A stretch of DNA of 62,412 nt from Planctomycetaceae bacterium. Its GTDB lineage: Bacteria; Planctomycetota; Phycisphaerae; Tepidisphaerales; Tepidisphaeraceae. The stretch is from positions 1-62,412 of the forward strand of contig JBIQLO010000001.1 of assembly GCA_044464175.1 (NCBI GenBank), written 5' to 3'. The stretch's first letter is position 1; the number at the start of each line of letters is the position of its first letter. The notes under the pieces are model-generated. The model did not search any database, was not told the origin of the DNA, and saw only the letters and a program-made list of their open reading frames with translations. Made by a program: the position numbers and the translations under genes. Below, piece after piece: positions 6,358 to 40,353 of this stretch.

Positions 6358-8576
6358 ACCACAAACCCACCATTGCCTTCTTCGGCTCCAGCCTTGTCTC
6401 GGCCTACTGGAACGGGGCGGCCACTTACTACCGGGGCCTGGTTCGCGCGCTGCACGCCCGCGGCTATCGCGTCACGTTCTATGAGCCTGATGCCTACGAA
6501 CGGCAACAGCATCGGGACATGCCCGACCCGCCCTGGGCGCGGGTGGTGGTCTATTCAGCCCAGGGCACCGATGCGCTTGAGGCGTGCCTTCAGGAAGCCG
6601 CCGGTGCCGATCTGATCGTCAAGGCCAGTGGCGTGGGGGTTTTTGACGAGCTGCTTGAAGCGCGGGTTCCGGCCCTGCGGCGATCGGGCAATTTGGTGGC
6701 CTTCTGGGATGTGGATGCCCCGGCCACGCTGGAACGGCTTCGGCGGAACCCGCAGGACCCGTTTCATCCCCTGATTCCGCGGTATGACCTGATTTTCACA
6801 TATGGCGGCGGGCAGCCGGTGATCTCGGCGTACGAACAACTGGGGGCGCGGCGATGCGTGCCGATTTACAACGCCCTGGACCCGCAAACGCATCATCCGG
6901 TCCCGCCCGAGCCGCGCTTTGAGGCGGACCTGGGATTTCTGGGCAACCGCCTGCCGGACCGGGAGGCGCGGGTGGAGGCGTTCTTCATTCAGGCCGCGGC
7001 GATGCTGCCCCAGCGGCAGTTTCTGCTGGGGGGAAGCGGATGGGAGGACAAGCCGCTGCCGCCCAACATCCGCCGCCTGGGGCACGTGCCGACGGCCGAC
7101 CACAACGCCTTTAACTGCACGCCCAGGGCGGTGCTGAACATCAGCCGCCAAAGCATGGCCGATTTTGGCTTCTCGCCGGCCACGCGCGTCTTTGAGGCCG
7201 CCGGCGCGGCCGCCTGCCTCATTACCGATGATTTTCCGGGCATTGACGAATTCTTTGAACCGGAGACGGAGATTCTCGTGGCGCGGGATGGGGCGGATGT
7301 CGCACGGCAGCTTGAGGCGCTGACGCCTGCAAAAGCGACCGCCATCGGGCAGGCCGCGTGCCGGCGGGTTCTGGCTGATCATACCTATGCCCAGCGGGCG
7401 GTGCGATTTGAGGAGGCAATCGGGGCCGATCCCGGAAGTGGGATTTCGGGTGCCGGGATTCGGGATTCTCACTCCAATCCGAATCCCGGCACCCAAAACC
7501 CGAAATCCGAGTCCCTCAACATCGTCATTCTCGGCCTGTCCATCACCTCTTCATGGGGAAACGGACACGCTACGACCTATCGGGGCCTGGTGCGCGAGCT
7601 GAGCCGCCGGGGACATCAGGTTTTGTTTCTTGAGCGGGATAAGCCCTGGTATGCGAACAACCGCGATCTACCCCACCCCCCTTTTGGGCGCACGGCATTG
7701 TATAAGACGGTGGAGGACCTGAAGCGGCGATTTGCGGCCGAGGTCCGGCAGGCGGACCTGGTGATCGTCGGCTCGTATGTGCCCCAGGGCGTGGCCGTTG
7801 GGCAATGGGTGATCCAGACCGCGCGGGGGCTGCCGGCATTTTATGACATCGACACGCCGGTCACGCTGGCGAAGCTGGAGCGGGGCGATGAGGAATACCT
7901 GTCGCGGGCCCTGGTGCCGCGCTACCGGCTGTACCTCTCCTTCACCGGCGGGCCGACGCTGGAGCGGCTGGAAAGGGAATTCGGGTCCCCCGCCGCCCGG
8001 GCGCTCTATTGCGCGGTGGACCCGGAATCGTATTACCCGCAGGAGTCGGCCAAAATCTGGGAACTGGGGTACCTGGGCACCTACAGCCCCGACAGGCAGC
8101 CCGCGCTGGAGCAGTTTTTGATGGGAACGGCGCGCCGGCGTCCCGCCGGGCGGTTTGTGGTGGCGGGCTCGCAGTATCCCTCGGAGATCGACTGGCCGCC
8201 CAACGTACAGCGCATCGAGCATCTGAACCCATCGGAACACCGGGCCTTCTACAACCAGCAGGATTTGACGCTCAACCTGACTCGCTCGGACATGCGTCGG
8301 GCCGGCTACTGCCCCAGCGTGCGCCTGTTTGAGGCGGCCGCCTGCGGGGTGCCGATCCTGACTGACCGGTGGGAGGGGCTGGATGAGTTCTTCACACCCA
8401 ATGAGGAAATCTGCGTCATCGGCAACACGGAGGAGGCGTTGCGGCTGATGGAGCAGCGCCAATCCAAGGCGATGCGCCTGCTGGGACAGGCCGCGCGGCA
8501 TCGGGTGCTGTCGCGGCACACGGCGGCCCATCGGGCGGCCGAATTGGAAACCATCGTACATGAGCTGAATCAATGA
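6354..8576 (+). CDS. Tandem di-domain CgeB-family glycosyltransferase-like protein (modules 2 and 3 fused)
   Basis: Residues 1 to ~360 and ~385 to 740 are paralogous: FFGSSLVSAYWNGAATYYRGL versus ILGLSITSSWGNGHATTYRGL, and RVFEAAGAAACLITD versus RLFEAAACGVPILTD. ATGA overlaps at both ends (6354 and 8573). Confidence 0.7.
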   Translation: MNHKPTIAFFGSSLVSAYWNGAATYYRGLVRALHARGYRVTFYEPDAYERQQHRDMPDPPWARVVVYSAQGTDALEACLQEAAGADLIVKASGVGVFDELLEARVPALRRSGNLVAFWDVDAPATLERLRRNPQDPFHPLIPRYDLIFTYGGGQPVISAYEQLGARRCVPIYNALDPQTHHPVPPEPRFEADLGFLGNRLPDREARVEAFFIQAAAMLPQRQFLLGGSGWEDKPLPPNIRRLGHVPTADHNAFNCTPRAVLNISRQSMADFGFSPATRVFEAAGAAACLITDDFPGIDEFFEPETEILVARDGADVARQLEALTPAKATAIGQAACRRVLADHTYAQRAVRFEEAIGADPGSGISGAGIRDSHSNPNPGTQNPKSESLNIVILGLSITSSWGNGHATTYRGLVRELSRRGHQVLFLERDKPWYANNRDLPHPPFGRTALYKTVEDLKRRFAAEVRQADLVIVGSYVPQGVAVGQWVIQTARGLPAFYDIDTPVTLAKLERGDEEYLSRALVPRYRLYLSFTGGPTLERLEREFGSPAARALYCAVDPESYYPQESAKIWELGYLGTYSPDRQPALEQFLMGTARRRPAGRFVVAGSQYPSEIDWPPNVQRIEHLNPSEHRAFYNQQDLTLNLTRSDMRRAGYCPSVRLFEAAACGVPILTDRWEGLDEFFTPNEEICVIGNTEEALRLMEQRQSKAMRLLGQAARHRVLSRHTAAHRAAELETIVHELNQ
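7441..7508. repeat. CGGGATT-heptamer hairpin lying inside the CDS at the junction of the two CgeB modules
   Basis: Arms are GGATTTCGGGTGCCGGGATTCGGGATT and AATCCGAATCCCGGCACCCAAAACCCGAAATCC. They pair as 10 bp plus 13 bp blocks with one bulge. The element is translated as GISGAGIRDSHSNPNPGTQNPKS. Confidence 0.85.
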
Positions 8577-10157: not shown

Positions 10158-10165
10158 ACATGGAC

Positions 10166-10194
10166 AATGGAAAATGGAAAATGAAAAATGGAAA
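10166..10194. repeat. Left arm of a perfect 29-bp inverted repeat (GGAAAAT heptamers)
   Basis: AATGGAAAATGGAAAATGAAAAATGGAAA is the exact reverse complement of 10583-10611. Confidence 0.95.
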
Positions 10195-10560
10195 TCAGGC
10201 GCGGCGGCGAGCGGTGACAATGGCTCGTCCGAGCATGCGGGCGATTTCCGAGGTTTCCCGGCGGACATCGGCGATGCGGGGTTCCTGAACCAACCTGGTT
10301 TCCACAATCAGCCGCAACCAATAAAGGGTTTCTCTCGCTTCCTTCAATGCGATGAGGTATTTGGCGACGAAATCAGCTTTGCTCTGAGCGGCCTGCCCTT
10401 CCTCGATATTTGCGCCGATGGAAGTTCCGGCGCGCAGCAACTGACTGGCGAGGGTGCGCGGCGTTCCAGGCTGGCGGTCCAAAAAGCGACAAAGATGAAC
10501 AATCCGGACCGCCAATCCGAAAGACCGGTCGGGAATGCTGGAAGATGTGGGAGTAATCAT
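10195..10560 (-). CDS. Four-helix-bundle protein (23S rRNA intervening-sequence protein family)
   Basis: 122 aa counted from the ATG at 10560. The motif LLRAGTSIGANIEEGQAAQSKADFVAKYLIALKEARETLYWLRL is characteristic of this family. The longer ORF-track start runs into the repeat arm. Confidence 0.85.
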   Translation of the reverse strand: MITPTSSSIPDRSFGLAVRIVHLCRFLDRQPGTPRTLASQLLRAGTSIGANIEEGQAAQSKADFVAKYLIALKEARETLYWLRLIVETRLVQEPRIADVRRETSEIARMLGRAIVTARRRA

Positions 10561-10582
10561 TCCTTCATCATGGCCCTTCCAT

Positions 10583-10611
10583 TTTCCATTTTTCATTTTC
10601 CATTTTCCATT
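10583..10611. repeat. Right arm of the perfect 29-bp inverted repeat
   Basis: TTTCCATTTTTCATTTTCCATTTTCCATT. Ends 4 nt before the pssA ATG. Confidence 0.95.
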
Positions 10612-10615
10612 TGAC

Positions 10616-11518
10616 ATGCCTCCCCTTCCCTCCAACTCCGTCCATCATCTGCATCGCCGCCAGCGGCGGCGGTGGCGCCGGCGGCGGGCGTATATCCGCT
10701 CGGTCTACTTTCTGCCCAGCCTGGCGACCCTGGGCAATGCGATCTGCGGGTTCGCGGCCATTTATGTGGCAGCATTGGATCCGTCGCTGCCCAGCGCCGA
10801 CTGGCTGACGGCGCGCTTCGCCGAGCACCGATTCACGGTGGCGGCCTATCTGATCTTCTTCGCCATGGTCTTTGACGCCCTGGACGGGCGGCTGGCGCGG
10901 TTTGCCCGGCATACGACCGATTTCGGCGGGCAGCTGGACAGCTTGGCGGATGTGCTGAGCTTTGGGGCGGCGCCGGCGTTTCTGGCGCTGCAGGCGTTTA
11001 AGGCGGGGTACCCGGATGTGCCGACGATCCTGTCGCGGCTGATCTGGGCGGTCGGGGCGCTGTTCATGAGCTGTGCGGCCATGCGCCTGGCGCGGTTCAA
11101 TGTCAGCAATGAGCATGGGGAACAGCACCACTTCAGCTTCCTGGGGCTGCCCAGCCCCGGGGCGGGGGCGGCCGTGGCATCGCTGGTGCTACTGGAACAA
11201 TATCTGCAGAACCACGGCCTGGCGTGGCTGTCGGCAATGTGCCTGTGGCTGCTGCCGCCGGTGGTGCTGGGAGCGGGGCTGCTGATGGTCAGCGCGGTGC
11301 GGTATCCGCACATGGTGAACCGGTATCTTCGGGGCAAGCGCTCAATCGCGCGGCTGGTGGCCGTGCTGGTGATCGCGCTGCTGTTCGTGGTGGCGCATCA
11401 GGTGACGCTGGCGATCGGCGCGCTGGGGTATGCGGCGTACGGGCCTGCATTGTGGCTGCTGGCGCGATGGCGCAAGAGCGGGGCGGGCGAGATGCCACAC
11501 ACCCAGCCGAATTCCTAG
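10616..11518 (+). CDS. pssA: CDP-diacylglycerol--serine O-phosphatidyltransferase
   Basis: CDP-alcohol phosphatidyltransferase motif DGRLAR...G...DSLAD. Multiple TM helices. ATG at 10616; the upstream ORF-track extension is repeat-encoded. Confidence 0.9.
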   Translation: MPPLPSNSVHHLHRRQRRRWRRRRAYIRSVYFLPSLATLGNAICGFAAIYVAALDPSLPSADWLTARFAEHRFTVAAYLIFFAMVFDALDGRLARFARHTTDFGGQLDSLADVLSFGAAPAFLALQAFKAGYPDVPTILSRLIWAVGALFMSCAAMRLARFNVSNEHGEQHHFSFLGLPSPGAGAAVASLVLLEQYLQNHGLAWLSAMCLWLLPPVVLGAGLLMVSAVRYPHMVNRYLRGKRSIARLVAVLVIALLFVVAHQVTLAIGALGYAAYGPALWLLARWRKSGAGEMPHTQPNS

Positions 11519-11698: not shown

Positions 11699-11723
11699 AG
11701 GTTCCGGCCCGTTCAGGCACGGC

Positions 11724-14481: not shown

Positions 14482-14485
14482 CGGC

Positions 14486-14515: not shown

Positions 14516-14594
14516 CATGGCCGGCCCGCGGCGCGCCTCTTTCGGCCTCGTGGCGGACGCCTCAGAAGAAAGCCGGCCTCGGCCCATTACCAAA

Positions 14595-14675
14595 GTTGCC
14601 AGTTTCCAGTTCGTAGGGTGGGCTTTAGCCCACCACCGCTGACTGGTGGTAAAGCCCACCCTACGAACTGGCAAC
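14595..14675. repeat. Long composite hairpin in the rpsO-pnp leader (CCAGTT outer arms plus GTAGGGTGGGCTTTA core)
   Basis: AGTTCGTAGGGTGGGCTTTA pairs perfectly (20 bp) with TAAAGCCCACCCTACGAACT. An inner CCACCA/TGGTGG stem and outer GTTGCCAG/CTGGCAAC also pair. Confidence 0.9.
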
Positions 14676-14730
14676 TGACAACTCCCTGTCGGGCCGATTC
14701 CCCCCTTGAGGCTGCTGAAGGATATTGTCT

Positions 14731-25661: not shown

Positions 25662-25690
25662 GTTACCAGTTATCAGTTGCCAGTTGCCAG
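25662..25690. repeat. CCAGTTG tandem heptamers spanning the nuoN/nuoM junction
   Basis: GTTACCAGTTATCAGTTGCCAGTTGCCAG. Covers the 18-nt spacer and the last nuoM codons (..LATGN stop). Confidence 0.8.
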
Positions 25691-27321: not shown

Positions 27322-27405
27322 TATTTGTTATGTGTTATTGGCAATTCGTTATTGGCCATTTGCGAAGGACAAACCAACCAGTAACAAACAACCAGCAACA
27401 AAAAT
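27322..27405. repeat. AT-richer imperfect hairpin with ~7-nt periodic arms in the nuoM/nuoL spacer
   Basis: The left arm GTTATTGGCAATTCGTTATTGG opposes the right arm CCAACCAGTAACAAACAACCAGCAAC. Fills the 92-nt spacer. Confidence 0.55.
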
Positions 27406-29625: not shown

Positions 29626-29700
29626 TCGTTGTCCGTTGTCCGTTGTCCGCTGCCCGGTGTCCGATTTGCTTCCTCGGACCACGGTCCACAGACAACGATC
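29626..29700. repeat. CGTTGTC/GTCCGTG-family hairpin in the nuoL/nuoK spacer
   Basis: Three tandem CGTTGTC units at 29627-29647 are opposed by TCGGACCACGGTCCACAGACAACGA. The outer 8 bp TCGTTGTC/GACAACGA pair perfectly. Confidence 0.8.
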
Positions 29701-30027: not shown

Positions 30028-30098
30028 CGTGGTTCGTGGTCCGTGGTCCGTGGTCCGAAAGAGTGAATCGGACCACGGACAACGGACGACGGACCACG
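30028..30098. repeat. GTCCGTG-heptamer hairpin in the nuoK/nuoJ spacer
   Basis: CGTGGTTCGTGGTCCGTGGTCCGTGGTCCGA, then a 9-nt loop, then TCGGACCACGGACAACGGACGACGGACCACG. The arms are 31 nt with about 4 mismatches. Confidence 0.9.
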
Positions 30099-30956: not shown

Positions 30957-31188
30957 CTGCTACCTCGTTTCCCATGCCCCGCCGGGCGAATCCCACGATC
31001 CGCGCGGCCGGGTTCGCTAATGAAAGGGCAGAGTCTATGAGTCCATGCCATTGATTGCAAGCCGGGGCGGGCGGGGAATCAGGGTTTTGGAAGTGGAATG
31101 AGGGGTCAGGGCTCGGGGATTTGCGATTTGGAATGAGGGATTGGGACAATCCCGGCCTCCGGTTCGCTCCGGGCCGCGCCAGCGCCGC

Positions 31189-31587: not shown

Positions 31588-31651
31588 GGTCGCTCCATCT
31601 TTGCAGGTGATCGGTGGGCCAATCCTCCCCACCCTACCGACTGGGCAGAAT

Positions 31652-32098: not shown

Positions 32099-32146
32099 GA
32101 TATCTCTTTCCTTTTTTCAGTTTCGCAAGGCGCGCAATAGCGTGTC

Positions 32147-32944
32147 CTACGTCACCCGCCACACCCACGGGGCGTGCTGCATCAGATACGTCTCATACCG
32201 CTGGGCCAAGCTGGGGTTGATCGCCGGATCGGATGCAAATTGCGCCGCCAGCCGGCAGTACGTCCATCGCATGTATATGGCATAGGTGCTTTGCGGAAAC
32301 CGCTTCACATACGATTCGATCCCCCGCAATGACTCGGCCAGGTTCTTCGACGACTTCAATTCCGGCAGCAGGTCCATCAGCGGATCGACCCGCGCGGTGT
32401 GACTGACCGAGCTCAGCGCCGCCATCGCCGCCCGCTCGGCCGGATCGTCCACGCAGGCGATGGTCACCGTATTGGAATAGACCACCCCGCTCTGCTGCAG
32501 TTTCAGACGCACTTCGTACCGCTGGCTGGCCTGAAACAGCGGCTGCTGCTGCCGGTTAAAGGTGAACAGTTTGAGAACCATTCCCAGCGAAGACTGGGGC
32601 GGCAACTGGACATACCCCAGCAGCGGCAGAATCGTCCACCAAGTGGGGATATCGCGCCATGCGCCGCCCTTTGCCGGCCGATATTGAACCGTCGCACCGA
32701 CCTCCCGGATACTTACCTGCCCGGCCGTGTTGGGATTCTTCACGGTTGTCGCGAGGAATAATGGCTCAAACGGCAGCAATTGCTTGCGCACCGGTTGAAG
32801 GGTGACCGCCAGCGGCGCCACCGGCCCGGCCGGGCGCCCGTCGCACGCCACGCACAGGCTGCACGCCAGAAGCGTCAGGAGCAGAAAACGGCCGATCTGG
32901 GACCATTCTGATTTCATTCCACGGGTGAATGGCTCCCATCCCAT
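32147..32944 (-). CDS. Hypothetical lipoprotein
   Basis: Candidate lipobox LLTLLAC after a charged N-terminus. Start is ATG 32944 or 32917; the longer track start is unlikely. Confidence 0.5.
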   Translation of the reverse strand: MGWEPFTRGMKSEWSQIGRFLLLTLLACSLCVACDGRPAGPVAPLAVTLQPVRKQLLPFEPLFLATTVKNPNTAGQVSIREVGATVQYRPAKGGAWRDIPTWWTILPLLGYVQLPPQSSLGMVLKLFTFNRQQQPLFQASQRYEVRLKLQQSGVVYSNTVTIACVDDPAERAAMAALSSVSHTARVDPLMDLLPELKSSKNLAESLRGIESYVKRFPQSTYAIYMRWTYCRLAAQFASDPAINPSLAQRYETYLMQHAPWVWRVT

Positions 32945-33091
32945 CGCGGCTCCTCCAGATATGTCCAGAACGGCGGGACCGGAGCGCGAGTTTACCGGGA
33001 TGACTCGGATGGGACAATCAAAAAATGATGCGTACCTGCTGTTCTGTAGACCACAGCGCGACAACGGATGCATGGCCGGCCAAGGCCCCTG

Positions 33092-33775
33092 CTACCCCAT
33101 CATCTCCCCCACCACCCGGTCCAGCTGGCTGTTCAGGTCCGCATCGATTTCCCCGTGGTGGGTGGCCAGGCGGCAGCCGCCGGGGGCGATCGATTCATCG
33201 GCCACCAGCTCGACGTGCTTCAGATTCGGCCATTGGAGCTTCAGATGCGGCAGCTCGCGCTCCAGAATCGCCTTCTGCTCCGGATGCACGGCAATCCGCA
33301 CATCCGAGGCGTGGATCACCAGCGCCATCGCCTCGGTGAGATTGGCGATCAGCACCTGCGGGTCCACCGCCGCCTGACGCTTGAGGATGCGCCGGGCCAG
33401 GGCGATGGCCAGTTCCGCCACCTCGGCCACGGCCGATGCCTCCAACTCCCGCCGCGAGGCGTCGATTTCCGCGGCCGTCGCCGACAGCGTCTGGATCAAC
33501 CCCGCCAGTTCCTGGCGGCACTCGCCCAAAGCGGCGTCGTGCCCGCTGCGCTGGCCCTGAGCCAAGCCGGCGGCCATCCCCTCCTGATGCCCCTGCGTCC
33601 GTCCTTCCTCCACCGCCTCGGCCCGCATCTGCTCCGCCTGGGCCTGCGCCTCGGCCAGCAACTGCTCCGCCTGCGACCGGGCGCGCAGCAAAATCCGCCG
33701 CGCCGCCGCCTCGATGTCGGCAAACGAAAACGGCGTCGCGGCCGCCGGGGCGAGGTTGGATTTGATCAGGCCCAT
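33092..33775 (-). CDS. fliH: Flagellar assembly protein FliH
   Basis: Coiled-coil AEQLLAEAQAQAEQMRAEA region and a C-terminal GGCRLATHHGEIDADLNSQL motif. Positioned after fliG. Confidence 0.8.
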   Translation of the reverse strand: MGLIKSNLAPAAATPFSFADIEAAARRILLRARSQAEQLLAEAQAQAEQMRAEAVEEGRTQGHQEGMAAGLAQGQRSGHDAALGECRQELAGLIQTLSATAAEIDASRRELEASAVAEVAELAIALARRILKRQAAVDPQVLIANLTEAMALVIHASDVRIAVHPEQKAILERELPHLKLQWPNLKHVELVADESIAPGGCRLATHHGEIDADLNSQLDRVVGEMMG

Positions 33776-33799
33776 GATGGAATGGATGCGGATCGACCG

Positions 33800-33865
33800 A
33801 AACGTGAAACATGAAGCGGTTGGGCTGTTTTTTTCATGTCTTCCTGTTTCACGTCTTCACGTCCG
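33800..33865. repeat. Hairpin with GT(T/C)TCAC heptamers in the fliG/fliH spacer
   Basis: CGTGAAACA pairs with TGTTTCACG, and CATGAA pairs with TTCATG, giving alternative registers. Tandem GTTTCAC GTCTTCA units are present. Confidence 0.55.
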
Positions 33866-33866
33866 C

Positions 33867-34883
33867 CTAAACGACCATCTCCTTCTCTCCGCCGCGCCCG
33901 GCAATGATGATTTCGCCGGCATCCTCCAGGCGGCGGACAATGTCCACGATCTTCTGCTGGGCCGCCTCCACATCGCTGACGCGCACGGGGCCCATGTACT
34001 GCATGTCCTCGCCGATCAGCTGGGCGGCGCGTTCGGACATATTCTTGAAAATCTTGTCCTTCAGCTCCTGGCTGGCCGTCTTGAGGGCCAGCGCCAGTTC
34101 CTCGTTGTCCACTTCCTTCAGCACCGACTGAATCCCCTTGTCGTTGACCAGCAGGATGTCCTCGAAGACGAACATGAGCCGGCGAATCTGCTCCACCAGG
34201 TCCGGGTCCTCCGCCTCCAGCCCCTCCATGATCCCCTTCTCCGTCGAGCGGTCGGCCAGGTTGAGAATCTCGGCCACCGTGTCCACGCCCCCGGCCTTCT
34301 CGAAGGTCTGGCTCACGATGTCGCTCAAACGATGCTCCAGCCCGCGCTCCACCTCCTTGATGACCTCCGGGTTGGTCTGCTCCATGTTGGCCACGCGCTT
34401 GACTACCTCCACCTGCTTGGCGCTGGGCAGGCCGACGAGGATTTCCGAGGCCTTCTGGCTGGGCAGGTGCGCCAAAATCAGCGCGATCGTCTGCGGATGC
34501 TCATCCTGAATGAACGTCAGCAGGTTCTCGCTCTCGGCCTTCTGCAAAAACGAGAACGGCGTGGTCTGCACCTGCTGGGTCACCTGCTTGATGACCCGTT
34601 CGGCATCCTGCTCGCTCAGCGACTTTTTTAAGAGGCTCTTGGCGTGCTCCAGCCCCCCCTCGCTCAGGTAGGAGTTGGCCAGGGCCAGGTTGTAAAACTC
34701 CCCAAAGACCTCCTTGCGCGTCGCCAGGGAGATCTCCCCCAGCGAGGCGATCTCGCGCGACACCTCCTCCACCGCCTCGGCCGGAAGGCGCTTGAGCACC
34801 TCCGCCGCCTGGTCCTGCTCCAGCGACAGAAGCAGAATCGCCGCCTTGCGAACGCCCGACATATCCAGTGTGCTCTTGGCCAT
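33867..34883 (-). CDS. fliG: Flagellar motor switch protein FliG
   Basis: 338 aa. VRKAAILLLSLEQDQAAEVLKRL N-terminus and typical C-terminal torque-helix region. Confidence 0.9.
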   Translation of the reverse strand: MAKSTLDMSGVRKAAILLLSLEQDQAAEVLKRLPAEAVEEVSREIASLGEISLATRKEVFGEFYNLALANSYLSEGGLEHAKSLLKKSLSEQDAERVIKQVTQQVQTTPFSFLQKAESENLLTFIQDEHPQTIALILAHLPSQKASEILVGLPSAKQVEVVKRVANMEQTNPEVIKEVERGLEHRLSDIVSQTFEKAGGVDTVAEILNLADRSTEKGIMEGLEAEDPDLVEQIRRLMFVFEDILLVNDKGIQSVLKEVDNEELALALKTASQELKDKIFKNMSERAAQLIGEDMQYMGPVRVSDVEAAQQKIVDIVRRLEDAGEIIIAGRGGEKEMVV

Positions 34884-34914
34884 GAATTAGTTGCCGGTTG
34901 TCGGCATGTAGCAT

Positions 34915-34968
34915 GTAGGGTGGGCTTTAGCCCACCAGGAACGGCCGGTGGGCTAAAGCCCACCCTAC
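34915..34968. repeat. Perfect 22-bp hairpin GTAGGGTGGGCTTTAGCCCACC in the fliF/fliG spacer
   Basis: Arms at 34915-34936 and 34947-34968 are exact reverse complements. Same core as 14611-14668. Confidence 0.95.
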
Positions 34969-34984
34969 GACCGCCTACTCGGCC

Positions 34985-36631
34985 TCACCGATGCAGCCAC
35001 CGCTGCACCAGGTTGGCCGCCGCGTCCGGATTGTCCTTCACCATCGTCTCCACTTGGGTCAGCATCTGCTGCGCCCGCACGGCATCCTCATCCAGTTCCA
35101 TTCCGTCCAGCATTCCCTCCCCGCCGCCAACCTCGGCCGCCAGTTCCTCCCCGCCGATCAGCGGCGGGGGCTCCTTCGGCTCGCTGGTCCGGATCGCGGC
35201 CACCACCGGCTGCGGCCCGCTCTTGCGCACCATCATCATCACCATCAGCAGGCTGAAGACCGCCAGCACCCCCACCGCGATCTCCTTCAGGTGCGATGAA
35301 AAAGCCATCGTCAGCGGCGCGGAGGCGGCCGACGCCACGGCCGCCGGCATGCGCGGGGCCAGGTCCGGATAGGTCTCCACCGTCACGGCGTTGGGGTCCT
35401 TCAGCGCGGTGCATCCCATCACCACCTGGCGGATGTTGGACAGTTCCGCATCGATGATCGGCTTGAGCACCGCCTCATCCGGGTCGTTCTGCGCGTTGGG
35501 ATTGCGGCTCTTGAACAGCTTGATGAAGAAGCTGCGCGGCACGCGCACGGCCGCCGCCACCGGCGTGGCCGTCCCGGCCGGCATCTTGCTGGTGGTGACG
35601 GTCTTGCTTACCTCCACCATGTACTTGGTCTGGTTCTTCTCGCTGGTGGTGCTGGAGGTGTCCCCCGCCGGCGCCGAGCCGTCGATGGACATGCCCGTGT
35701 TGGTGGCGACCCCCGGCTCCCCGCCGGCCGGGGAGGTGGAATGGGATTCATCCGTGCTGTTGGTCTCCTCGATCGGCTTGGAGACCACCTTCTTGGGGTC
35801 CACCTCCGTCGCCTGCTGCTGGCGGGAGACCGTGTCCAGGTCCACCGTCACGCTGACCAGCGCGCCGGGGATGAACGAAAGCATCCCCTGGATTTTGTCC
35901 ACATACCGCCGCTCGTTGGCCTGCACCAGTTGGAGGATGTCGTCGGGAATGAATCCATCCTCATCCTTGGCGGCCACCGGGTAGGACACCCCGTCCACGA
36001 TGACGGCCACGCGATTGCGCGGCATCCCCGCCTGCGAGCCGGTCACCACGTCGGCGGCCGCGTAGACGAGCTTTTTGTTCGGCTTCTGCCCGTCGCGCAT
36101 GGTGATGTAGACCGTCGCCGAGGGGAGCACGTTGCCCCCGATGACGCGCTGCTGGGTGGGGTCGATCACCACCTGGGCCGACTGGACGTTGGGAAAGCGC
36201 GAGATGATCTGGCTGAGGGTGATCTCCTTGGCCCGGTTGAACCGCTCCTTTTCCATGGTGGGCGATTCCCAGAGGCTCATCTGCTTGATCATCTCATCAA
36301 AGCCGCTGGTGGTGTCACGCGGGAGCATGCGCTGGTAGCCCAGGTCCGCCAGCACCTCCATTTTCCGGTCGGTGGGCACCAGCACCCGGTCCCCCGAAAC
36401 CTTGTATTCAATGCCGCGCGAGGCGATGGCGGCGGTGACGCGCGCGATGTCATCGGCCGCGAACGGCTGGTCCAGCAAGGGGGTCAGTTCCGGATTGCCC
36501 GCGTATTTCCCCCAGTAGAGCAGCGTCATGATCATGATCGCCACCAGCGCGCCGGTGAGCATCTTCTGCGTGGCGCTCAGCTGGGCCAGTTGCTGCTGGA
36601 TACGATCAAACTGCGATTTGAGAAAGTCCAT
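34985..36631 (-). CDS. fliF: Flagellar M-ring protein FliF
   Basis: 548 aa. An N-terminal TM helix, YscJ/FliF ring-building domains and a C-terminal TM helix plus a FliG-binding tail. Confidence 0.9.
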   Translation of the reverse strand: MDFLKSQFDRIQQQLAQLSATQKMLTGALVAIMIMTLLYWGKYAGNPELTPLLDQPFAADDIARVTAAIASRGIEYKVSGDRVLVPTDRKMEVLADLGYQRMLPRDTTSGFDEMIKQMSLWESPTMEKERFNRAKEITLSQIISRFPNVQSAQVVIDPTQQRVIGGNVLPSATVYITMRDGQKPNKKLVYAAADVVTGSQAGMPRNRVAVIVDGVSYPVAAKDEDGFIPDDILQLVQANERRYVDKIQGMLSFIPGALVSVTVDLDTVSRQQQATEVDPKKVVSKPIEETNSTDESHSTSPAGGEPGVATNTGMSIDGSAPAGDTSSTTSEKNQTKYMVEVSKTVTTSKMPAGTATPVAAAVRVPRSFFIKLFKSRNPNAQNDPDEAVLKPIIDAELSNIRQVVMGCTALKDPNAVTVETYPDLAPRMPAAVASAASAPLTMAFSSHLKEIAVGVLAVFSLLMVMMMVRKSGPQPVVAAIRTSEPKEPPPLIGGEELAAEVGGGEGMLDGMELDEDAVRAQQMLTQVETMVKDNPDAAANLVQRWLHR

Positions 36632-36740
36632 GGCTCAAAGCCTTCCTTGGCTTGACCACAATCGTTCAGGCGCGAAGACGGCTCCTCCTGAGCCATCACA
36701 AAATCAGAGTAAATCACGAATCGGGAAAATGCAAATGGAA

Positions 36741-36808
36741 ATCGTTGTCCGTGGTCCGTTGTCCGAGCAGAAACCACGGACCACGGACAACGGACAACGG
36801 ACAACGAT
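36741..36808. repeat. CGTTGTC/GTCCGTG-family hairpin in the fliE/fliF spacer
   Basis: ATCGTTGTCCGTGGTCCGTTGTCCG is opposed by CGGACCACGGACAACGGACAACGGACAACGAT. The register can slip by whole heptamers. Confidence 0.85.
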
Positions 36809-37113
36809 CAAATCGGCATATTCTTAATCTCCTCGTACGCATCCATCAGCTTGGAGCGGATCGCCAGGAGGGTCTTGAAGGCCAGGTCCGACTTCTCCAC
36901 CGCCGTCATCACCCCGGTCACGTTCTCCGTCTTGCCCGCCACCAGGTCCTCCACGGCCGCCGAGGCATCCTGCTGCATCTTCGACACCTCGTCGATGCTC
37001 TTTTTCAGCGCATCGGCAAAGCTCGCCCCCCCGCCGCCGGCCGCCCCCCCCGCCGCCGGCATCGACCCGCCGATCTTCCCGATCCCGAGATTGTTGGTGG
37101 AAATTGGATTCAT
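36808..37113 (-). CDS. fliE: Flagellar hook-basal body complex protein FliE
   Basis: 101 aa from the ATG at 37113. The FADALKKSIDEVSKMQQDA...AVEKSDLAFKTLLAIRSKLMDAYEEI sequence is typical of FliE. Confidence 0.85.
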   Translation of the reverse strand: MNPISTNNLGIGKIGGSMPAAGGAAGGGGASFADALKKSIDEVSKMQQDASAAVEDLVAGKTENVTGVMTAVEKSDLAFKTLLAIRSKLMDAYEEIKNMPI

Positions 37114-37115
37114 GT

Positions 37116-37190
37116 TCGTTGTCCGGGGTCCATCGGCCGTGGTCCATGATGATCCCTCTGGGACCATGGACAACGGATCACGGACCACGA
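37116..37190. repeat. Degenerate GTCCGTG-family hairpin in the flgC/fliE spacer
   Basis: TCGTTGTCCGGGGTCCATCGGCCGTGGTCC versus GGACCATGGACAACGGATCACGGACCACGA. About 22 of 30 positions are complementary. Confidence 0.65.
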
Positions 37191-37192
37191 TT

Positions 37193-37588
37193 TCATGCGA
37201 TCAACCTCAGCGCCGAGTTCAGCATCGCCTTGCTCGTCTCCATCATCGTCACATTCGCCTCATACGCCCGGGACGCCTCCATGGCGTTGACATATTCGGT
37301 CGGCAGATTGATGTTGGGATAGCGCACATATCCGTTCTTGTCCGCATCCGGATTCCCCGGCTCATACCGTTTCTGGAAAGGCGAATGGTCGATCTTCACC
37401 TCGGCCCGCACGCCCGCCTTGCCGTTGGCCTGCCCCGCCGCAAAAACCGTGAACCGGCGCCGATAGGGGATTTTTTCCCCTTTGGCGTTCCGCGTCGTGT
37501 TCAGGTTCATGATATTGGCCGCGATCGTGTCCATCCGCGCCCGCTGGGCCTCCAGCCCGCTGGCGCCCATATCCAGTATGTCAAACAT
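37193..37588 (-). CDS. flgC: Flagellar basal-body rod protein FlgC
   Basis: MFDILDMGASGLEAQRARMDTIAANIMNLNTTR and a C-terminal SNVTMMETSKAMLNSALRL-type rod motif. ATG at 37588. Confidence 0.9.
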   Translation of the reverse strand: MFDILDMGASGLEAQRARMDTIAANIMNLNTTRNAKGEKIPYRRRFTVFAAGQANGKAGVRAEVKIDHSPFQKRYEPGNPDADKNGYVRYPNINLPTEYVNAMEASRAYEANVTMMETSKAMLNSALRLIA

Positions 37589-37608
37589 CAGACCTCCATG
37601 TCTTTCAT

Positions 37609-37670
37609 CGTAGTCCGTGGTCCGTGGTCCGATTCCCCTTCGGATCACGGACCACGGACTACGGACCACG
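37609..37670. repeat. GTCCGTG-heptamer hairpin in the flgB/flgC spacer
   Basis: CGTAGTCCGTGGTCCGTG pairs perfectly (18 bp) with CACGGACCACGGACTACG. There is also an inner TCCGA/TCGGA stem. Confidence 0.9.
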
Positions 37671-37673
37671 GGT

Positions 37674-38075
37674 TTACCCCACCCGCTCCTTCAACGCCAT
37701 CTCCATCGTCTGAAACTGCTTGCGCAGCAACTCCACCGCCACGTTGTGCATCAGGGCGTTTTTCGCCTGGCTCGTCATGAGCTGCTCAATGGAGCGGTTG
37801 TTCCCATCGTGGAACAGAATCCCCCGCTGGGGATGCTCCACCGCCTGGCGCAGTCCGGAAAAATTCCCCACCGCCGGGCCCCCGGACCGCCGCGCCTCCA
37901 GCTCCTCGCGCATCATCGCCTGGAACTCGTCCAGCGACAGGTCCTTCTGCCGGTATCCCGGCGTGTCCACGTTGACGATGTTCTCCGCCAGCAGCCGCTG
38001 CCGCGCGGAAGTGAATTGCAGCGTCGCCTCCAGCGCCGGCGCTGATCCCGAATTGAGCAACCGATCGATGAACAT
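37674..38075 (-). CDS. flgB: Flagellar basal-body rod protein FlgB
   Basis: 133 aa. LLAENIVNVDTPGYRQKD rod N-terminal motif. First gene of the operon. Confidence 0.85.
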   Translation of the reverse strand: MFIDRLLNSGSAPALEATLQFTSARQRLLAENIVNVDTPGYRQKDLSLDEFQAMMREELEARRSGGPAVGNFSGLRQAVEHPQRGILFHDGNNRSIEQLMTSQAKNALMHNVAVELLRKQFQTMEMALKERVG

Positions 38076-38310
38076 TCAATTCCTCCGAGAATCAAATTCC
38101 ATGCCAGTCTCATCTTCTTCCATTTTCCCACGAACGCAATCCCTCCCCCGCCGCCCCCGGCGCAATCCCTGCGCCCCGCCGCGCATTTTTTGCCCGCCGC
38201 CGGCCCAACCCCCTGAACCCTGCCCCGGCCCCGGGGAACTAGGATAAATCCGCCCCGTGCTTTATAAATAGCCCGGACAACCACTGTTTTAGAAACCGAG
38301 GCATCGTGCA

Positions 38311-40353
38311 ATGGCGTTGATTACCCTTCCCGACAACAGCACCAAGGAAATTCCCGACGGTTCCACCGTCGCCGATCTGGCCCAGTCCATCGGCAAGCGG
38401 CTGGCCCAGGCGGCCATCGTCGGCAAACTCGACGACCGCCTGGTCGATCTGGCCCACCCCCTCACCGGCGCTCACCGCCTGGCCATCATCACCGACCGGG
38501 ACCCCGAAGGCCTCTATGTCCTGCGCCACAGCACCGCCCACGTCCTGGCCCAGGCGCTGCGCCATCTCTTCGGCGCCAAGCTCCAGTACACCATCGGCCC
38601 GGTCATCGAAAACGGTTTTTTCTACGATTTCGAGTTCCCCGAAGGCGCCAACTTCTCCGCCGAGGACTTGCCCAGGGTGGAGGCCGAGATGCGCAAGATC
38701 ATCGAGGCCGACGAATCCTTCAGCCGCCAGGAGGTCCCTCCGCCCCAGGCGAAGGAAATCCTCCACCAGCAGAGCCAGCGCTTTAAGGATGAGATCATCG
38801 ACGAACTGGCCGCCGCCGGGGAAAAAACCGTCTCCATCTACCGCCAGGGCGATTTCACTGACCTGTGCCGCGGCCCCCACATCCCCGCCACCGGCCGAAT
38901 CAAGGCCTTCAAGCTCCTCTCCGTCGCCGGCGCGTATTGGCGCGGCGACAGCAACCGCCAGCAACTCACCCGCATCTACGGAACCGCCTTCTTCAGCCAG
39001 AAGGAACTGGACCAGCACCTGGCCATGCTCGAAGAGGCGAAGAAGCGCGACCACCGCATCCTCGGACCGCAACTGGGCCTGTTCACCATCGATGAAACCG
39101 TCGGCCAGGGACTGGTCCTCTGGAAGCCCAAAGGCGCCACCGTGCGCGACGAGCTGCAGAAATTCATCATGGAACACCTGCGCCAGCAGGGCTACAGCCA
39201 GGTCTTCACCCCCCACATTGGCCGCCTGGATCTCTACCGCACCAGCGGCCACTATCCCTACTACAGCCAAAGCCAGTTCCCCCCCCTCACCGACCGCGAA
39301 CAGATCGACAAGCTTGCCAAGGAAAACGTCAGTTGCGCCGAACTGGCGTCCCGCATGGAAAAGGGCGAAATCGACGGCTATCTCCTCAAGCCGATGAATT
39401 GCCCCATGCACATCAAAATTTACGAATCCGAGCCGCGCAGCTACCGCGACCTGCCCATCCGCCTGGCCGAGTTCGGAACCGTCTATCGCTGGGAAAAAAG
39501 CGGCGAGTTGGGCGGCCTCACCCGCGTCCGCGGCTTTACCCAGGACGACGCCCACCTCTTTTGCACCGAGGAGCAACTTCCCGCCGAACTGCTCGGCTGC
39601 CTTGAACTGGTCAAGATCGTCTTTTCCACCCTCGCCATGCACGACTACCGCGTCCGAGTCGGCCTGCGCGATCCGGACAGCGCCAAGTATGTCGGCTCCG
39701 CCGAGCAGTGGGACGCCGCCGAAGCCGCCTGCCGCCACGCCGCCGAATCGCTGGGTGTCCCCTTCGTCGCCGAACCCGGCGAGGCCGCCTTCTATGGCCC
39801 CAAAATCGACTTCGTGGTCAAAGACGTCATCGGCCGCGAGTGGCAATTGGGCACCGTCCAGGTCGATTATCAGCTTCCCCGCCGCTTCGAGCTCTCCTAC
39901 ACCGGCGCTGACAACCGCCCCCACTACCCCGTCATGATCCACCGCGCCCCCTTTGGCTCGATGGAACGCTTCATCGGCGTCCTGATCGAGCATTTCAACG
40001 GCGCATTCCCCTTGTGGCTCGCCCCCGTGCAGGCGGCCATCCTGAGCGTCAGCGAGAAATCCAACGACTACGCCCGCGCCGTCGCCGCCGAACTGGCCAC
40101 CGCCGGCCTGCGCGTCCAAAGCCAACTCGGCCCGGAAAAGATCGGCGCTAAAATCCGCGACGCCTCCCTCCAGAAAATTCCCTATATGCTCATCCTCGGC
40201 GAAAAGGAACAGCAGGCCAACCTCGTCGCCGTCCGCCACCGCACCGACGGCGACAAAGGCCAGATGCCGGTTGAAGAATTCATCCAGCGATGCCTCCAGG
40301 AAATCGCCACCCGCGGCGCCGCTCACGCCACGGCCGACAAACACGCAAAATAA
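38311..40353 (+). CDS. thrS: Threonine--tRNA ligase
   Basis: TGS domain at the N-terminus, an editing domain, a class II core (HRAPFGSMERFIGVLIEH) and an anticodon-binding domain. Confidence 0.95.
   Translation: MALITLPDNSTKEIPDGSTVADLAQSIGKRLAQAAIVGKLDDRLVDLAHPLTGAHRLAIITDRDPEGLYVLRHSTAHVLAQALRHLFGAKLQYTIGPVIENGFFYDFEFPEGANFSAEDLPRVEAEMRKIIEADESFSRQEVPPPQAKEILHQQSQRFKDEIIDELAAAGEKTVSIYRQGDFTDLCRGPHIPATGRIKAFKLLSVAGAYWRGDSNRQQLTRIYGTAFFSQKELDQHLAMLEEAKKRDHRILGPQLGLFTIDETVGQGLVLWKPKGATVRDELQKFIMEHLRQQGYSQVFTPHIGRLDLYRTSGHYPYYSQSQFPPLTDREQIDKLAKENVSCAELASRMEKGEIDGYLLKPMNCPMHIKIYESEPRSYRDLPIRLAEFGTVYRWEKSGELGGLTRVRGFTQDDAHLFCTEEQLPAELLGCLELVKIVFSTLAMHDYRVRVGLRDPDSAKYVGSAEQWDAAEAACRHAAESLGVPFVAEPGEAAFYGPKIDFVVKDVIGREWQLGTVQVDYQLPRRFELSYTGADNRPHYPVMIHRAPFGSMERFIGVLIEHFNGAFPLWLAPVQAAILSVSEKSNDYARAVAAELATAGLRVQSQLGPEKIGAKIRDASLQKIPYMLILGEKEQQANLVAVRHRTDGDKGQMPVEEFIQRCLQEIATRGAAHATADKHAK

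What the first reader, a model, noticed from the sequence alone, without database searches (positions are those of the whole stretch)
33776..37673. All five spacers of the flgB-flgC-fliE-fliF-fliG-fliH operon carry a hairpin repeat
Seen directly, spacer by spacer:
- flgB/flgC: 37609-37670, with an 18-bp perfect stem.
- flgC/fliE: 37116-37190, degenerate.
- fliE/fliF: 36741-36808, overlapping the fliE stop by 1 nt.
- fliF/fliG: 34915-34968, with a perfect 22-bp stem.
- fliG/fliH: 33800-33865.

Three different sequence families are used, yet each junction holds exactly one element. This argues for a position-specific function or a position-specific insertion mechanism, rather than drift.

The subunits encoded here differ greatly in copy number, for example FliF and FliG rings versus FliE and rod proteins. 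Hairpin-delimited mRNA segments are a plausible way to set different half-lives.
Basis: partly seen in the sequence, partly recalled or inferred. Interest (0 to 1): 0.62.

Follow-up and report, generated by a model that had tools for sequence, protein, structure and literature searches.

The report
Repeat hairpins filling flagellar operon gaps
All five gaps between the flgB-to-fliH flagellar genes really do hold one strong hairpin each, but these are copies of a genome-wide, probably selfish repeat class (stems built from tandem 7-base units, plus one REP doublet) that also fills gaps in other operons and comes and goes among relatives, so they are not a flagellum-specific control device.

Summary
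Each of the five stop-to-start gaps holds one hairpin, and every gap folds better than all 200 shuffles (z = -3.2 to -8.0).

- Four hairpins share one architecture: arms made of 3-5 tandem 7-nt units, mirrored in the other arm. The fifth is a GTAG-tagged REP doublet (REPIN).
- The same elements fill the nuoJ/K, nuoK/L, nuoL/M, rpsO/pnp and psd/pssA gaps of the window.
- In 19 related Tepidisphaerales loci, flagellar gaps are occupied in 12 of 74 cases. Several relatives have compact operons with no hairpins.
- Heptamer sequences are mostly genome-specific, and adjacent gaps share a family.
- Sense and antisense strands fold equally well, and no T-run follows the stems.

Unexpectedly, the same inverted heptamer arrays flank a PF05635 gene (23S-rRNA-intervening-sequence / Avd-like four-helix-bundle protein). 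This occurs in the window, in flagellar gaps of two distant Phycisphaerae, and in Verrucomicrobiota and Acidobacteriota.

Best reading: the hairpins are ORF-less, intervening-sequence-like palindromic repeats that settle between cistrons. In the mRNA they should form 20-30 bp stems, which are likely RNase III or exonuclease-barrier sites. That effect is a consequence, not a demonstrated purpose.

The parts
38092..38106 (-). Sigma-54-type promoter TGGCAT-N5-TTGA, 17-31 nt upstream of the flgB ATG
   Evidence: It is the only match in the window. The same YGGCAY-N5-TTGW motif lies upstream of flgB in all 18 related loci, several of which have a sigma-54 activator gene next door.
37674..38075 (-). 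flgB
   Evidence: Weak Flg_bb_rod hit. Synteny is conserved in all 80 loci.
37609..37670 (-). Heptamer-arm hairpin (CGTGGTC/CGTAGTC)n ... (GGACCAC)n in the flgB/flgC gap
   Evidence: -51.5 kcal/mol, z = -7.4. It starts 3 nt after the stop codon.
37193..37588 (-). flgC
37116..37190 (-). Degenerate heptamer-arm hairpin in the flgC/fliE gap. It ends 2-3 nt before the fliE ATG.
   Evidence: z = -3.2.
36808..37113 (-). fliE
36741..36808 (-). Heptamer-arm hairpin (CGTTGTC/CGTGGTC)n ... (GGACAAC)n. It overlaps the fliE stop codon by 1 nt.
   Evidence: z = -7.6. Logan contigs break here and show many different flanks, so the repeat is dispersed in the source genome.
36640..36651 (-). Conserved mini-hairpin GCC-AAGGAA-GGC that presents the ribosome-binding site, 8 nt before the fliF ATG. 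It is not part of the repeat.
   Evidence: Present in all 19 Tepidisphaerales-like loci.
34985..36631 (-). fliF
34915..34968 (-). REP doublet (REPIN): GTAGGGTGGGCTTTAGCCCACC, a 10-nt loop, then the inverted copy. It lies in the fliF/fliG gap.
   Evidence: Perfect 22-bp stem (z = -8.0). The same REP occurs at 14611-14672 in the window, in the fliF/fliG gap of L081, and as single units in L001 and L019.
33867..34883 (-). fliG
33788..33866 (-). Hairpin with 7/8-nt periodic arms (GACGTGAA GACGTGAA ACAGGAA GACATGAA) in the fliG/fliH gap
   Evidence: z = -3.8. Period-7 identity of the arms is 0.69.
33092..33775 (-). fliH
30028..30098 (-). Hairpin of the same CGTGGTC family in the nuoJ/nuoK gap
   Evidence: z = -6.6.
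29626..29698 (-). Hairpin of the same CGTTGTC family in the nuoK/nuoL gap
   Evidence: z = -3.9.
27333..27400 (-). AT-rich heptamer-arm hairpin in the nuoL/nuoM gap
   Evidence: z = -3.1.
14594..14683 (+). REP doublet nested inside AGTTGCC-type heptamer arms, in the rpsO/pnp gap
10159..10617 (.). Full-size relative: inverted (AATGGAA)n / (TTCCATT)n arrays that run from the psd stop codon to the pssA-like start codon. They enclose a PF05635 four-helix-bundle gene (10198-10560, minus strand).
   Evidence: TIGR02436 E = 2e-27 and PF05635 E = 6e-23.
7433..7515 (+). Heptamer-arm hairpin (GGGATTC)n read in frame as the linker of a two-glycosyltransferase fusion ORF

Best explanation
The five hairpins are copies of short palindromic repeats. 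These repeats colonise the stop-to-start gaps inside operons of this Tepidisphaerales-like planctomycete.

Four of them are 'heptamer-arm hairpins'. The 5' arm holds 3-5 tandem 7-nt units and the 3' arm holds their mirror image. One is a GTAG-tagged REP doublet (REPIN).

I infer that the heptamer hairpins are the ORF-less form of a wider element. The full form carries a PF05635 gene (23S-rRNA-intervening-sequence / Avd-like protein) in the loop between the same kind of inverted heptamer arrays.

The elements arise and spread at the DNA level, by slippage of 7-nt units plus copying between nearby gaps, or by a still unknown mobilisation. They persist where they do not break a reading frame or a ribosome-binding site.

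They are transcribed within the sigma-54-driven flgB-fliH mRNA, where they must fold into 20-30 bp stems. By analogy with the rRNA intervening sequence, these stems are likely RNase III substrates or barriers to 3' exonucleases. They may therefore cut or segment the operon mRNA. That would be a side effect or later co-option, not their reason for existing.

Shown: structure, periodicity, distribution, turnover, and the link with PF05635 genes. Inferred: mode of spread, the derivation of ORF-less copies from ORF-bearing ones, and RNA processing.
For: - Structure and significance.
- 7-nt periodicity: 12 period-7 arrays against 0-4 for other periods, with 10 of 12 in the 9.5% of the window that is non-coding.
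- Same families in the nuo, rpsO/pnp and psd/pssA gaps.
- Canonical terminators with T-runs exist elsewhere in the window, but none follows these stems.
- Presence and absence among relatives: window 5/5, L008 5/5, L081 4/4, L002 3/5. Compact empty operons occur in L004, L009, L082, L085 and L091.
- Adjacent gaps share a heptamer family, and the strongest 7-mer sharing is within genomes.
- Sense and antisense strands fold equally well: sense more stable in 12 elements, antisense in 16 (2 within 0.5 kcal/mol), p = 0.98.
- The repeat is dispersed in the source metagenome.
- All 4 PF05635 genes found in 1.5 Mb of Phycisphaerae sequence are flanked by inverted heptamer arrays, and 3 of them sit in flagellar gaps.
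- Of 9 further PF05635 genes at homologue loci from Planctomycetota, Verrucomicrobiota, Acidobacteriota and a cyanobacterium-like contig, 7 show clear inverted heptamer arrays, one has arrays mostly in direct orientation (L100) and one has none (L100b).
- ORF-less hairpins with the same heptamers lie next to ORF-bearing ones in L098, and similar ones in L013.
- Published data on the Coxiella 23S rRNA intervening sequence: a 28-bp terminal stem, tandem heptameric repeats of variable copy number, an S23p (PF05635) ORF in the loop, and RNase III cleavage in the stem (PMC4990558).
Against: - No transposase, target-site duplication or empty/filled polymorphism within one species was seen, so mobility is not shown.
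- The short hairpins of the window use different heptamers from its one PF05635-bearing element.
- Flagellar gaps are occupied somewhat more often than other co-directional gaps in relatives (12/74 vs 9/169, p = 0.011). fliG/fliH is occupied in 7 of 15. The window and L081 share the element type at fliE/fliF and fliF/fliG despite only 49% FliF identity. These points leave room for a selected, position-linked role.
- No RNA data are available.
Confidence: 0.6

Rival explanations
1. First reader's model. The hairpins are maintained by selection as intercistronic stabilisers or processing sites. They give the flgB, flgC, fliE, fliF, fliG and fliH mRNA segments different half-lives and so help to set subunit stoichiometry.
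For: - One strong stem per gap, inside a single sigma-54 transcription unit.
- Occupancy clusters in multi-subunit membrane-complex operons, flagellar and nuo.
- The fliG/fliH gap is recurrently occupied with different sequences.
- Orthologous gaps share 7-mers more often than non-orthologous ones (p = 0.01).
- From established knowledge: REP and puf-operon hairpins are known to stabilise upstream mRNA segments.
Against: - About half of the related genomes have none, and their genes are 3-50 nt apart.
- The same repeats sit in unrelated gaps, and one lies inside an ORF.
- There is no sense-strand bias in stability.
- Protection of upstream segments would favour flgB and flgC, not the abundant FliF and FliG.
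- Against other gaps of 40 nt or more, the enrichment is not significant (p = 0.17).
Confidence: 0.17
2. Purely local by-product. Polymerase slippage on 7-nt units and template switching build palindromic arrays in situ at each gap. There is no mobility and no link to PF05635 elements. PF05635 genes merely tend to insert into such hairpins.
For: - Heptanucleotide repeats are the commonest long simple repeat in many bacteria, and slippage has been proposed as the cause (Mrazek 2007, as summarised in PMC4679880).
- Copy number varies between Coxiella strains.
- Arms can pair in registers shifted by 7 nt (I7 vs I11).
- L093 has a pure tandem octamer array without a hairpin.
Against: - Identical families occur in gaps kilobases apart (fliE/fliF and nuoK/L, 7-mer sharing 0.47) and elsewhere in the source genome.
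- The same heptamer and a 58%-identical PF05635 protein travel together in the window and in L094.
Confidence: 0.13
3. The arrays are binding or initiation signals for translation. The 3' arm lies just upstream of the next start codon and recruits a factor such as S1, Csp-like proteins or the PF05635 protein. Alternatively, the stem couples termination of one cistron to initiation of the next by bringing the stop and start codons together.
For: - Several 3' arms end 0-8 nt before the ATG with no separate Shine-Dalgarno sequence: flgC/fliE, nuoK/L, nuoL/M and psd/pssA.
- TAACTGA heptamer repeats in Beggiatoaceae most often end 1 nt before start codons (PMC4679880).
- The 5' arm lies within reach of a terminating ribosome.
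Against: - Other gaps keep a normal GGAGG sequence 12-31 nt downstream of the stem (flgB/flgC, fliF/fliG, L098, L101).
- The fliE/fliF element is 109 nt from the fliF start codon.
- Relatives without the elements are presumably motile too.
Confidence: 0.07
4. The stems are partial transcription terminators or attenuators without a U-tract. They would create a gradient of expression along the operon.
For: The stems are very stable and G+C-rich. Terminators lacking a U-tract have been proposed for some high-GC bacteria (from general knowledge).
Against: - No T-run follows any of them.
- The genome uses canonical hairpin-plus-T-run terminators at operon ends: 11650-11701, 14485-14513, about 17050-17085 and about 23850-23880.
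- A gradient would starve the distal fliF, fliG and fliH genes.
Confidence: 0.03

Closest known systems
23S rRNA intervening sequences carrying an S23p / PF05635 ORF (Coxiella, Leptospira; PMC4990558)
   Same: - Terminal inverted repeats form a stem of 20-30 bp.
- Tandem heptameric repeats of variable copy number lie within the stem region.
- A PF05635 four-helix-bundle ORF sits in the loop. This is seen here at window 10159-10617 and in the flagellar gaps of L013 and L014.
- The element is regarded as selfish, and RNase III cuts its stem.
   Different: - These elements lie between protein-coding cistrons, not in rRNA helices.
- The five flagellar copies have 7-25 nt loops and no ORF.
- RNase III cleavage is not shown here.
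Cyanobacterial STRR and TAACTGA-type tandem heptanucleotide repeats (PMC4679880, PMC2408588; Mazel 1990 from memory)
   Same: - 7-nt unit, intergenic, often inside operons and close to start codons.
- Overlapping repertoire of units. TTGTCAG/CAACTGA and ATTGCGA occur both in Nostoc hyp-operon spacers and in these Phycisphaerae.
   Different: - The published cases are mostly direct arrays. In Maribeggiatoa there are 169 direct sets and 1 inverted set.
- Here the arrays come as mirrored pairs that form a hairpin.
- The host phylum is Planctomycetota.
REP / REPIN elements with a GTAG tag (PMC3733652, PMC3116915)
   Same: - The fliF/fliG element has the GTAG tag, an 8-bp stem with a 2-nt loop, and a head-to-head doublet that forms a longer hairpin.
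- It has several copies per genome and is shared between genera.
- GTAG REPs have been reported in the PVC superphylum.
   Different: - No RAYT transposase gene was seen in the sequence at hand.
- The other four hairpins lack the tag and have periodic arms, so they are not REPs in the strict sense.
Intercistronic stabilising hairpins (E. coli malEFG REP, Rhodobacter puf operon; from general knowledge)
   Same: Stable stems between cistrons of one transcript.
   Different: Those cases have experimental support and are conserved where functional. Here occupancy is patchy among relatives, and nothing is known about the RNA.

Membership tests
REP/REPIN (GTAG superfamily) | Unpaired GTAG (or close variant) tag at one end of a short stem-loop | tested here: met
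   Met only for 34915-34968 and 14611-14672: GTAG + GGTGGGCT-TT-AGCCCACC. The four heptamer hairpins have no consistent tag.
REP/REPIN (GTAG superfamily) | Two inverted REPs close together that form a larger hairpin (REPIN), present in several copies per genome | tested here: met
   Head-to-head doublet with a 10-nt spacer. There is a second locus in the window, and further copies with other loops appear in Logan contigs and in L081, L001 and L019.
REP/REPIN (GTAG superfamily) | A cognate RAYT (IS200/IS605-like tyrosine transposase) gene in the genome | not tested
   Only this 62-kb contig of the genome is at hand. Not all of its ORFs were scanned, and none of those scanned is a transposase.
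STRR-type tandem heptanucleotide repeats | Tandem arrays of a 7-nt unit in non-coding DNA | tested here: met
   12 period-7 arrays against 4, 1, 1 and 0 for periods 5, 6, 8 and 9. Ten of the 12 are non-coding, while the window is 90.5% coding.
STRR-type tandem heptanucleotide repeats | Occurrence in heterocystous cyanobacteria (the original definition) | tested here: not met
   The host is Tepidisphaerales-like (Planctomycetota): the best FliG hits are 92-93% identical.
23S rRNA intervening sequence with S23p ORF | Terminal inverted repeats that form a long stem, with heptameric repeats | tested here: met
   compared with PMC4990558.
23S rRNA intervening sequence with S23p ORF | PF05635 ORF in the loop | tested here: not met
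   The five flagellar hairpins have loops of 7-25 nt. The feature is met by the sister element at 10159-10617 and by elements in the flagellar gaps of L013 and L014.
23S rRNA intervening sequence with S23p ORF | Insertion at the tip of a 23S rRNA helix | tested here: not met
   All copies lie between protein-coding genes. No rRNA is present in the window: Rfam gives 0 hits.
23S rRNA intervening sequence with S23p ORF | Excision by RNase III | not testable with these tools
   No transcript data for this organism. RNA runs hold only 5-6% of the words.
Intrinsic (Rho-independent) terminator | G+C-rich stem followed directly by a T-run | tested here: not met
   No terminator-like site coincides with any of the five stems. 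Canonical terminators occur elsewhere in the window.
MITE | Terminal inverted repeats plus a target-site duplication, derived from an element that encodes a transposase | tested here: inconclusive
   Inverted arms are present. No consistent duplication was seen by eye at the flanks. The only ORF-bearing relative encodes a four-helix-bundle protein, not a known transposase.
Curated RNA families (Rfam 15) | Match at the gathering score | tested here: not met
   0 matches in the whole window.

The most novel reading that the evidence does not exclude
Inverted tandem-heptamer arrays and PF05635 four-helix-bundle (Avd-like) genes may together form one widespread selfish element, present in at least four phyla. 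The known form sits at 23S rRNA helix tips as the 'intervening sequence'. Its commoner home would be the stop-to-start gap inside operons.

On this reading, the short heptamer-arm hairpins of the flagellar and nuo operons, and perhaps cyanobacterial STRRs in general, are its non-autonomous derivatives. The pentameric protein would recognise the 7-nt repeats. Operon mRNAs carrying the stems would be cut by RNase III in the way fragmented rRNA is.
Probability: 0.3. Interest if true: 0.75.

Novelty: new variant of a known kind. Interest (0 to 1): 0.55.

Why it matters
- Stand-alone PF05635 proteins and tandem heptanucleotide repeats are both common and both unexplained. Finding them as one composite, sitting exactly between cistrons in several phyla, suggests a single testable story for both, and for the origin of rRNA intervening sequences.
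- If the stems are cut by RNase III, many operons in these bacteria would be expressed from segmented mRNAs.
- For genome annotation, these elements lengthen apparent ORFs, fuse genes, and break short-read assemblies.
- For the flagellar operon itself, the result is sobering. A striking 'one hairpin per gap' pattern can arise from repeat colonisation and need not mean regulation.

Tried and rejected
- Close relatives for a strain-level filled/empty comparison: none found. The exact FliE protein is not on record. A metagenome scan with FliF gave 8 loci at 49% identity or less. Logan contigs of the source study are too short and break at the repeats.
- RNA evidence: metatranscriptomes hold only 5-6% of fliG words, which come from relatives.
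- nuo-operon comparison: no nuo gene lies in any related locus.
- Rfam: no hit.
- Sense versus antisense stability as a sign of RNA-level selection: no difference.
- Terminator hypothesis: no T-runs.
- tblastn with the window's PF05635 protein found no other copy. An HMM built from four copies found only those four.
- Target-site duplications: none consistent by eye.
- Enrichment of flagellar gaps across all Phycisphaerae is small (13/285 vs 22/814). It is modest within Tepidisphaerales.
- A literature search found no description of inverted heptamer arrays flanking non-rRNA PF05635 genes. This is absence in the searched library only.

Full report
**What is there**

The window is a 62.4-kb contig with 63% G+C. 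It comes from a Tepidisphaerales-like planctomycete. Its FliG is 92-93% identical to the best database hits, which are named Tepidisphaeraceae. The source appears to be a landfill metagenome.

On the minus strand lie flgB, flgC, fliE, fliF, fliG and fliH (Pfam). This gene order is kept in all 80 Phycisphaerae loci fetched. A sigma-54-type promoter (TGGCAT-N5-TTGA, 38092-38106) sits 17-31 nt upstream of flgB. The same motif is conserved in all 18 related loci, several of which have a sigma-54 activator gene upstream. The six genes are therefore most likely one transcript.

**The observation**

Each of the five gaps holds one hairpin at the stated coordinates.
- Folding energies are -29.5 to -66.3 kcal/mol, with z = -3.2 to -8.0.
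- None of 200 shuffles per gap folds as well.
- The 18-bp and 22-bp perfect runs and the 1-nt overlap with the fliE stop codon are all correct.

Four of the five hairpins share one design: the arms are tandem ~7-nt units.
- Examples are CGTGGTC, CGTTGTC and GACGTGA(A).
- The other arm holds the reverse complements of the same units.
- The hairpin can therefore pair in registers shifted by 7 nt.
- The window has 12 period-7 arrays of three or more units, against 4, 1, 1 and 0 for periods 5, 6, 8 and 9.
- Ten of the 12 lie in the 9.5% of the window that is non-coding.

The fifth element, in the fliF/fliG gap, is a GTAG-tagged REP doublet. It reads GTAGGGTGGGCTTTAGCCCACC, then 10 nt, then the inverted copy. 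This is the REPIN arrangement described for GTAG REPs (PMC3733652).

**Not flagellum-specific**

- The same CGTGGTC/CGTTGTC hairpins fill the nuoJ/nuoK and nuoK/nuoL gaps.
- An AT-rich heptamer hairpin fills the nuoL/nuoM gap.
- The REP doublet, nested inside AGTTGCC heptamer arms, lies in the rpsO/pnp gap.
- A (GGGATTC)n hairpin is read in frame as the linker of a two-glycosyltransferase fusion ORF.

The heptamer hairpins start 0-4 nt after the upstream stop codon; the fliF/fliG REP doublet starts 16 nt after it. The elements usually end 0-31 nt before the next start codon, with the fliE/fliF element 109 nt from the fliF start. In effect the element is the gap.

No T-run follows any stem. Operon ends in the same window carry canonical hairpin-plus-T-run terminators. 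The stems are therefore not ordinary terminators.

Ten of the 44 co-directional gaps in the window are occupied. The chance that all five flagellar gaps are among them is 2e-4. Occupancy is thus clustered by operon: flagellar 5/5, and three hairpins in the four nuo gaps (nuoM/N has only a direct array).

**Relatives**

No close relative exists in the collections. The best FliF identity is 49%.

Among Tepidisphaerales-like loci the picture is patchy.

| Locus | Flagellar gaps occupied |
|---|---|
| Window | 5 of 5 |
| L008 | 5 of 5 (plus one upstream of flgB) |
| L081 | 4 of 4 |
| L002 | 3 of 5 |
| L001, L003, L005, L089, L090 | fliG/fliH only |
| L004, L009, L082, L085, L091 | none |

The empty operons are compact, with gaps of 3, 12-32, 43-104, 39-47 and 12-63 nt.

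Excluding the window:
- Flagellar gaps are occupied in 12 of 74 cases, against 9 of 169 other co-directional gaps (p = 0.011).
- Against other gaps of 40 nt or more the figure is 9 of 99 (p = 0.17).
- fliG/fliH is the most often occupied gap, 7 of 15.

The heptamers differ between genomes. Examples are GGGTTCA, CGATTGA, CGAGTAA, CTAGCAA, GTCAGTT and ATTTGCA.

| Pair type | Share of pairs with more than 15% of 7-mers in common |
|---|---|
| Same genome, different gap | 23% |
| Different genomes, orthologous gap | 11% |
| Different genomes, non-orthologous gap | 4% |

Orthologous gaps exceed non-orthologous ones at p = 0.01. Adjacent gaps often carry the same family. Examples are window flgB/C, flgC/E and fliE/F; L008 flgB/C and flgC/E; L008 fliF/G and fliG/H; and L081 flgB/C and flgC/E.

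The window and L081 share the REP doublet at fliF/fliG and CAACGGA units at fliE/fliF. Families therefore spread mainly within genomes, with some long-term retention at a site.

Sense and antisense strands fold equally well: across 30 elements the sense strand is more stable in 12, the antisense in 16, and 2 differ by less than 0.5 kcal/mol (p = 0.98). The symmetry is a DNA-level property. It gives no sign of selection on the mRNA structure.

**The unexpected link**

In the window's psd/pssA gap, an (AATGGAA)n array starts 1 nt after the psd stop codon. Its inverted partner ends at the pssA-like ATG. The 380 nt between them encode, on the opposite strand, a PF05635 / TIGR02436 four-helix-bundle protein. 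This is the '23S rRNA intervening sequence protein' family, related to DGR Avd.

An HMM search of all 1.5 Mb of fetched Phycisphaerae sequence found only three more such genes: L013 fliG/fliH, L014 flgB/flgC and L014 fliE/fliF. All three sit in flagellar gaps, and all are flanked by inverted heptamer arrays.

Nine further PF05635 genes were examined at loci of homologues of the window's protein:

| Locus | Host and position | Flanks |
|---|---|---|
| L094 | Phycisphaerales, between type II secretion E and F genes | Same AAATGGA units; protein 58% identical |
| L095 (two genes) | Rubritalea, Verrucomicrobiota | Inverted arrays around both |
| L098 | Acidobacteriota, after pntB | Inverted (AAATGCA)n arrays |
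| L101 | After frdD | Inverted arrays |
| L102 | In a microcompartment operon | Inverted arrays |
| L103 | After an ABC transporter | Inverted arrays |
| L100 (first gene) | Cyanobacterium-like contig | Arrays on both sides, mostly direct rather than inverted |
| L100 (second gene) | Same contig | None |

So seven of the nine have clear inverted heptamer arrays, one has arrays mostly in direct orientation, and one has none.

ORF-less hairpins with the same or similar heptamers lie nearby in L098, L013 and L089. One fills an ABC-transporter gap in L103.

The published Coxiella intervening sequence has the same anatomy (PMC4990558):
- a 28-bp terminal stem;
- tandem GACAGAT heptamers of strain-variable number;
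- an S23p ORF in the loop;
- RNase III cleavage in the stem.

I found no paper describing this composite outside rRNA.

**How it most likely works**

Shown:
- The hairpins belong to a genome-wide class of palindromic repeats with 7-nt periodic arms, plus one REPIN.
- The class occupies stop-to-start gaps.
- It varies among relatives.
- It is physically associated with PF05635 genes in several phyla.

Inferred:
- The short hairpins are ORF-less derivatives of the ORF-bearing form, or its landing pads.
- Arms grow and shrink by slippage. Heptanucleotides are the commonest long simple repeat in bacteria (Mrazek 2007, via PMC4679880).
- Copies move or convert between nearby gaps.
- In the mRNA, the 20-30 bp stems are cut by RNase III or block 3' exonucleases.

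However, the evidence favours colonisation with possible co-option over a purpose-built stoichiometry device. My confidence in this overall reading is about 0.6. It is supported by the operon clustering, the recurrent fliG/fliH occupancy and the weak orthologous signal.

**Comparison with known kinds**

- The fliF/fliG element passes the structural tests for a GTAG REPIN. The transposase was not tested.
- The heptamer hairpins resemble cyanobacterial STRR and TAACTGA repeats in unit length, position and even unit sequence. They differ in being mirrored pairs and in their host phylum.
- They resemble the rRNA intervening sequence in stem anatomy. They fail its defining location, and the five flagellar copies lack its ORF.

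I therefore file the finding as a new variant of a known kind.

Noticed in passing
window 10159-10617: The psd/pssA-like gap is spanned by inverted (AATGGAA)n / (TTCCATT)n arrays. They enclose an antisense PF05635 (23S rRNA intervening-sequence / Avd-like) gene at 10198-10560. A homologous element with the same heptamer lies between type II secretion E and F genes in L094.
   Followed up: yes
window 7433-7515: A (GGGATTC)n heptamer-arm hairpin lies inside ORF 6354-8576. It is read in frame as a 29-residue linker between two glycosyltransferase modules. It looks like a colonised gap whose stop codon was lost, which fused two genes.
   Followed up: partly
window 14482-14730: The rpsO/pnp gap holds a canonical terminator (14485-14513) followed by a REP doublet nested in AGTTGCC heptamer arms (14594-14683), within the pnp leader. 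In E. coli the pnp leader is a long RNase III-cut hairpin used for autoregulation (from general knowledge). Whether the repeat plays that part here is unknown.
   Followed up: no
window 38092-38106 (-); L001-L093 upstream of flgB: A sigma-54-type promoter YGGCAY-N5-TTGW is conserved 15-35 nt upstream of flgB in all Tepidisphaerales-like loci. Relatives carry a histidine kinase and a sigma-54 activator gene just upstream. The window instead has a divergent thrS-like gene (38311-40353).
   Followed up: partly
window 36640-36651 (-); same position in 18 loci: A mini-hairpin GCC-AWGGAR-GGC with the ribosome-binding purines in its loop lies 7-9 nt before the fliF ATG in every related locus. The fliE/fliF gap is never shorter than 43 nt, even in genomes free of elements.
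   Followed up: partly
window 30957-33091: The flagellar operon stops at fliH. Relatives continue with fliI, fliJ and a hook-length gene. The window has ORFs without Pfam hits (32147-33073, 31652-32098), followed by nuoJKLMN without nuoA-I upstream.
   Followed up: no
window 25667-25690: A direct (not mirrored) heptamer array, CAGTTAT CAGTTGC CAGTTGC, overlaps the end of nuoM and the 18-nt nuoM/nuoN gap.
   Followed up: no
L093 7728-7863: About 17 tandem GGGACGAA / GGGTCGAA octamers fill the flgC/fliE gap of a relative. There is no inverted partner.
   Followed up: no
L001 7831-7855; L019 9868-9945: Single REP units of the same GTAGGGTGGGC family lie in flagellar gaps. In L001 the GTAG tag supplies the flgC stop codon. 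In L019 the REP follows GGTGACAA octamer repeats.
   Followed up: partly
L002 8173-8272, L012 8153-8343, L084 5110-5221 and 8716-8816: Another hairpin repeat, CCCTCTCCCGGAGTACCGGGAGAGGG and variants, recurs in flagellar gaps of other Tepidisphaerales-like genomes.
   Followed up: no
window 36783-36812 and 37664-37675 (Logan contigs of run X1): Short-read contigs of the source metagenome break exactly at the hairpins. Nine contigs with different flanks end at 36807/36808. These repeats therefore fragment assemblies, which may explain why many PF05635 genes sit on contigs of about 1 kb.
   Followed up: partly
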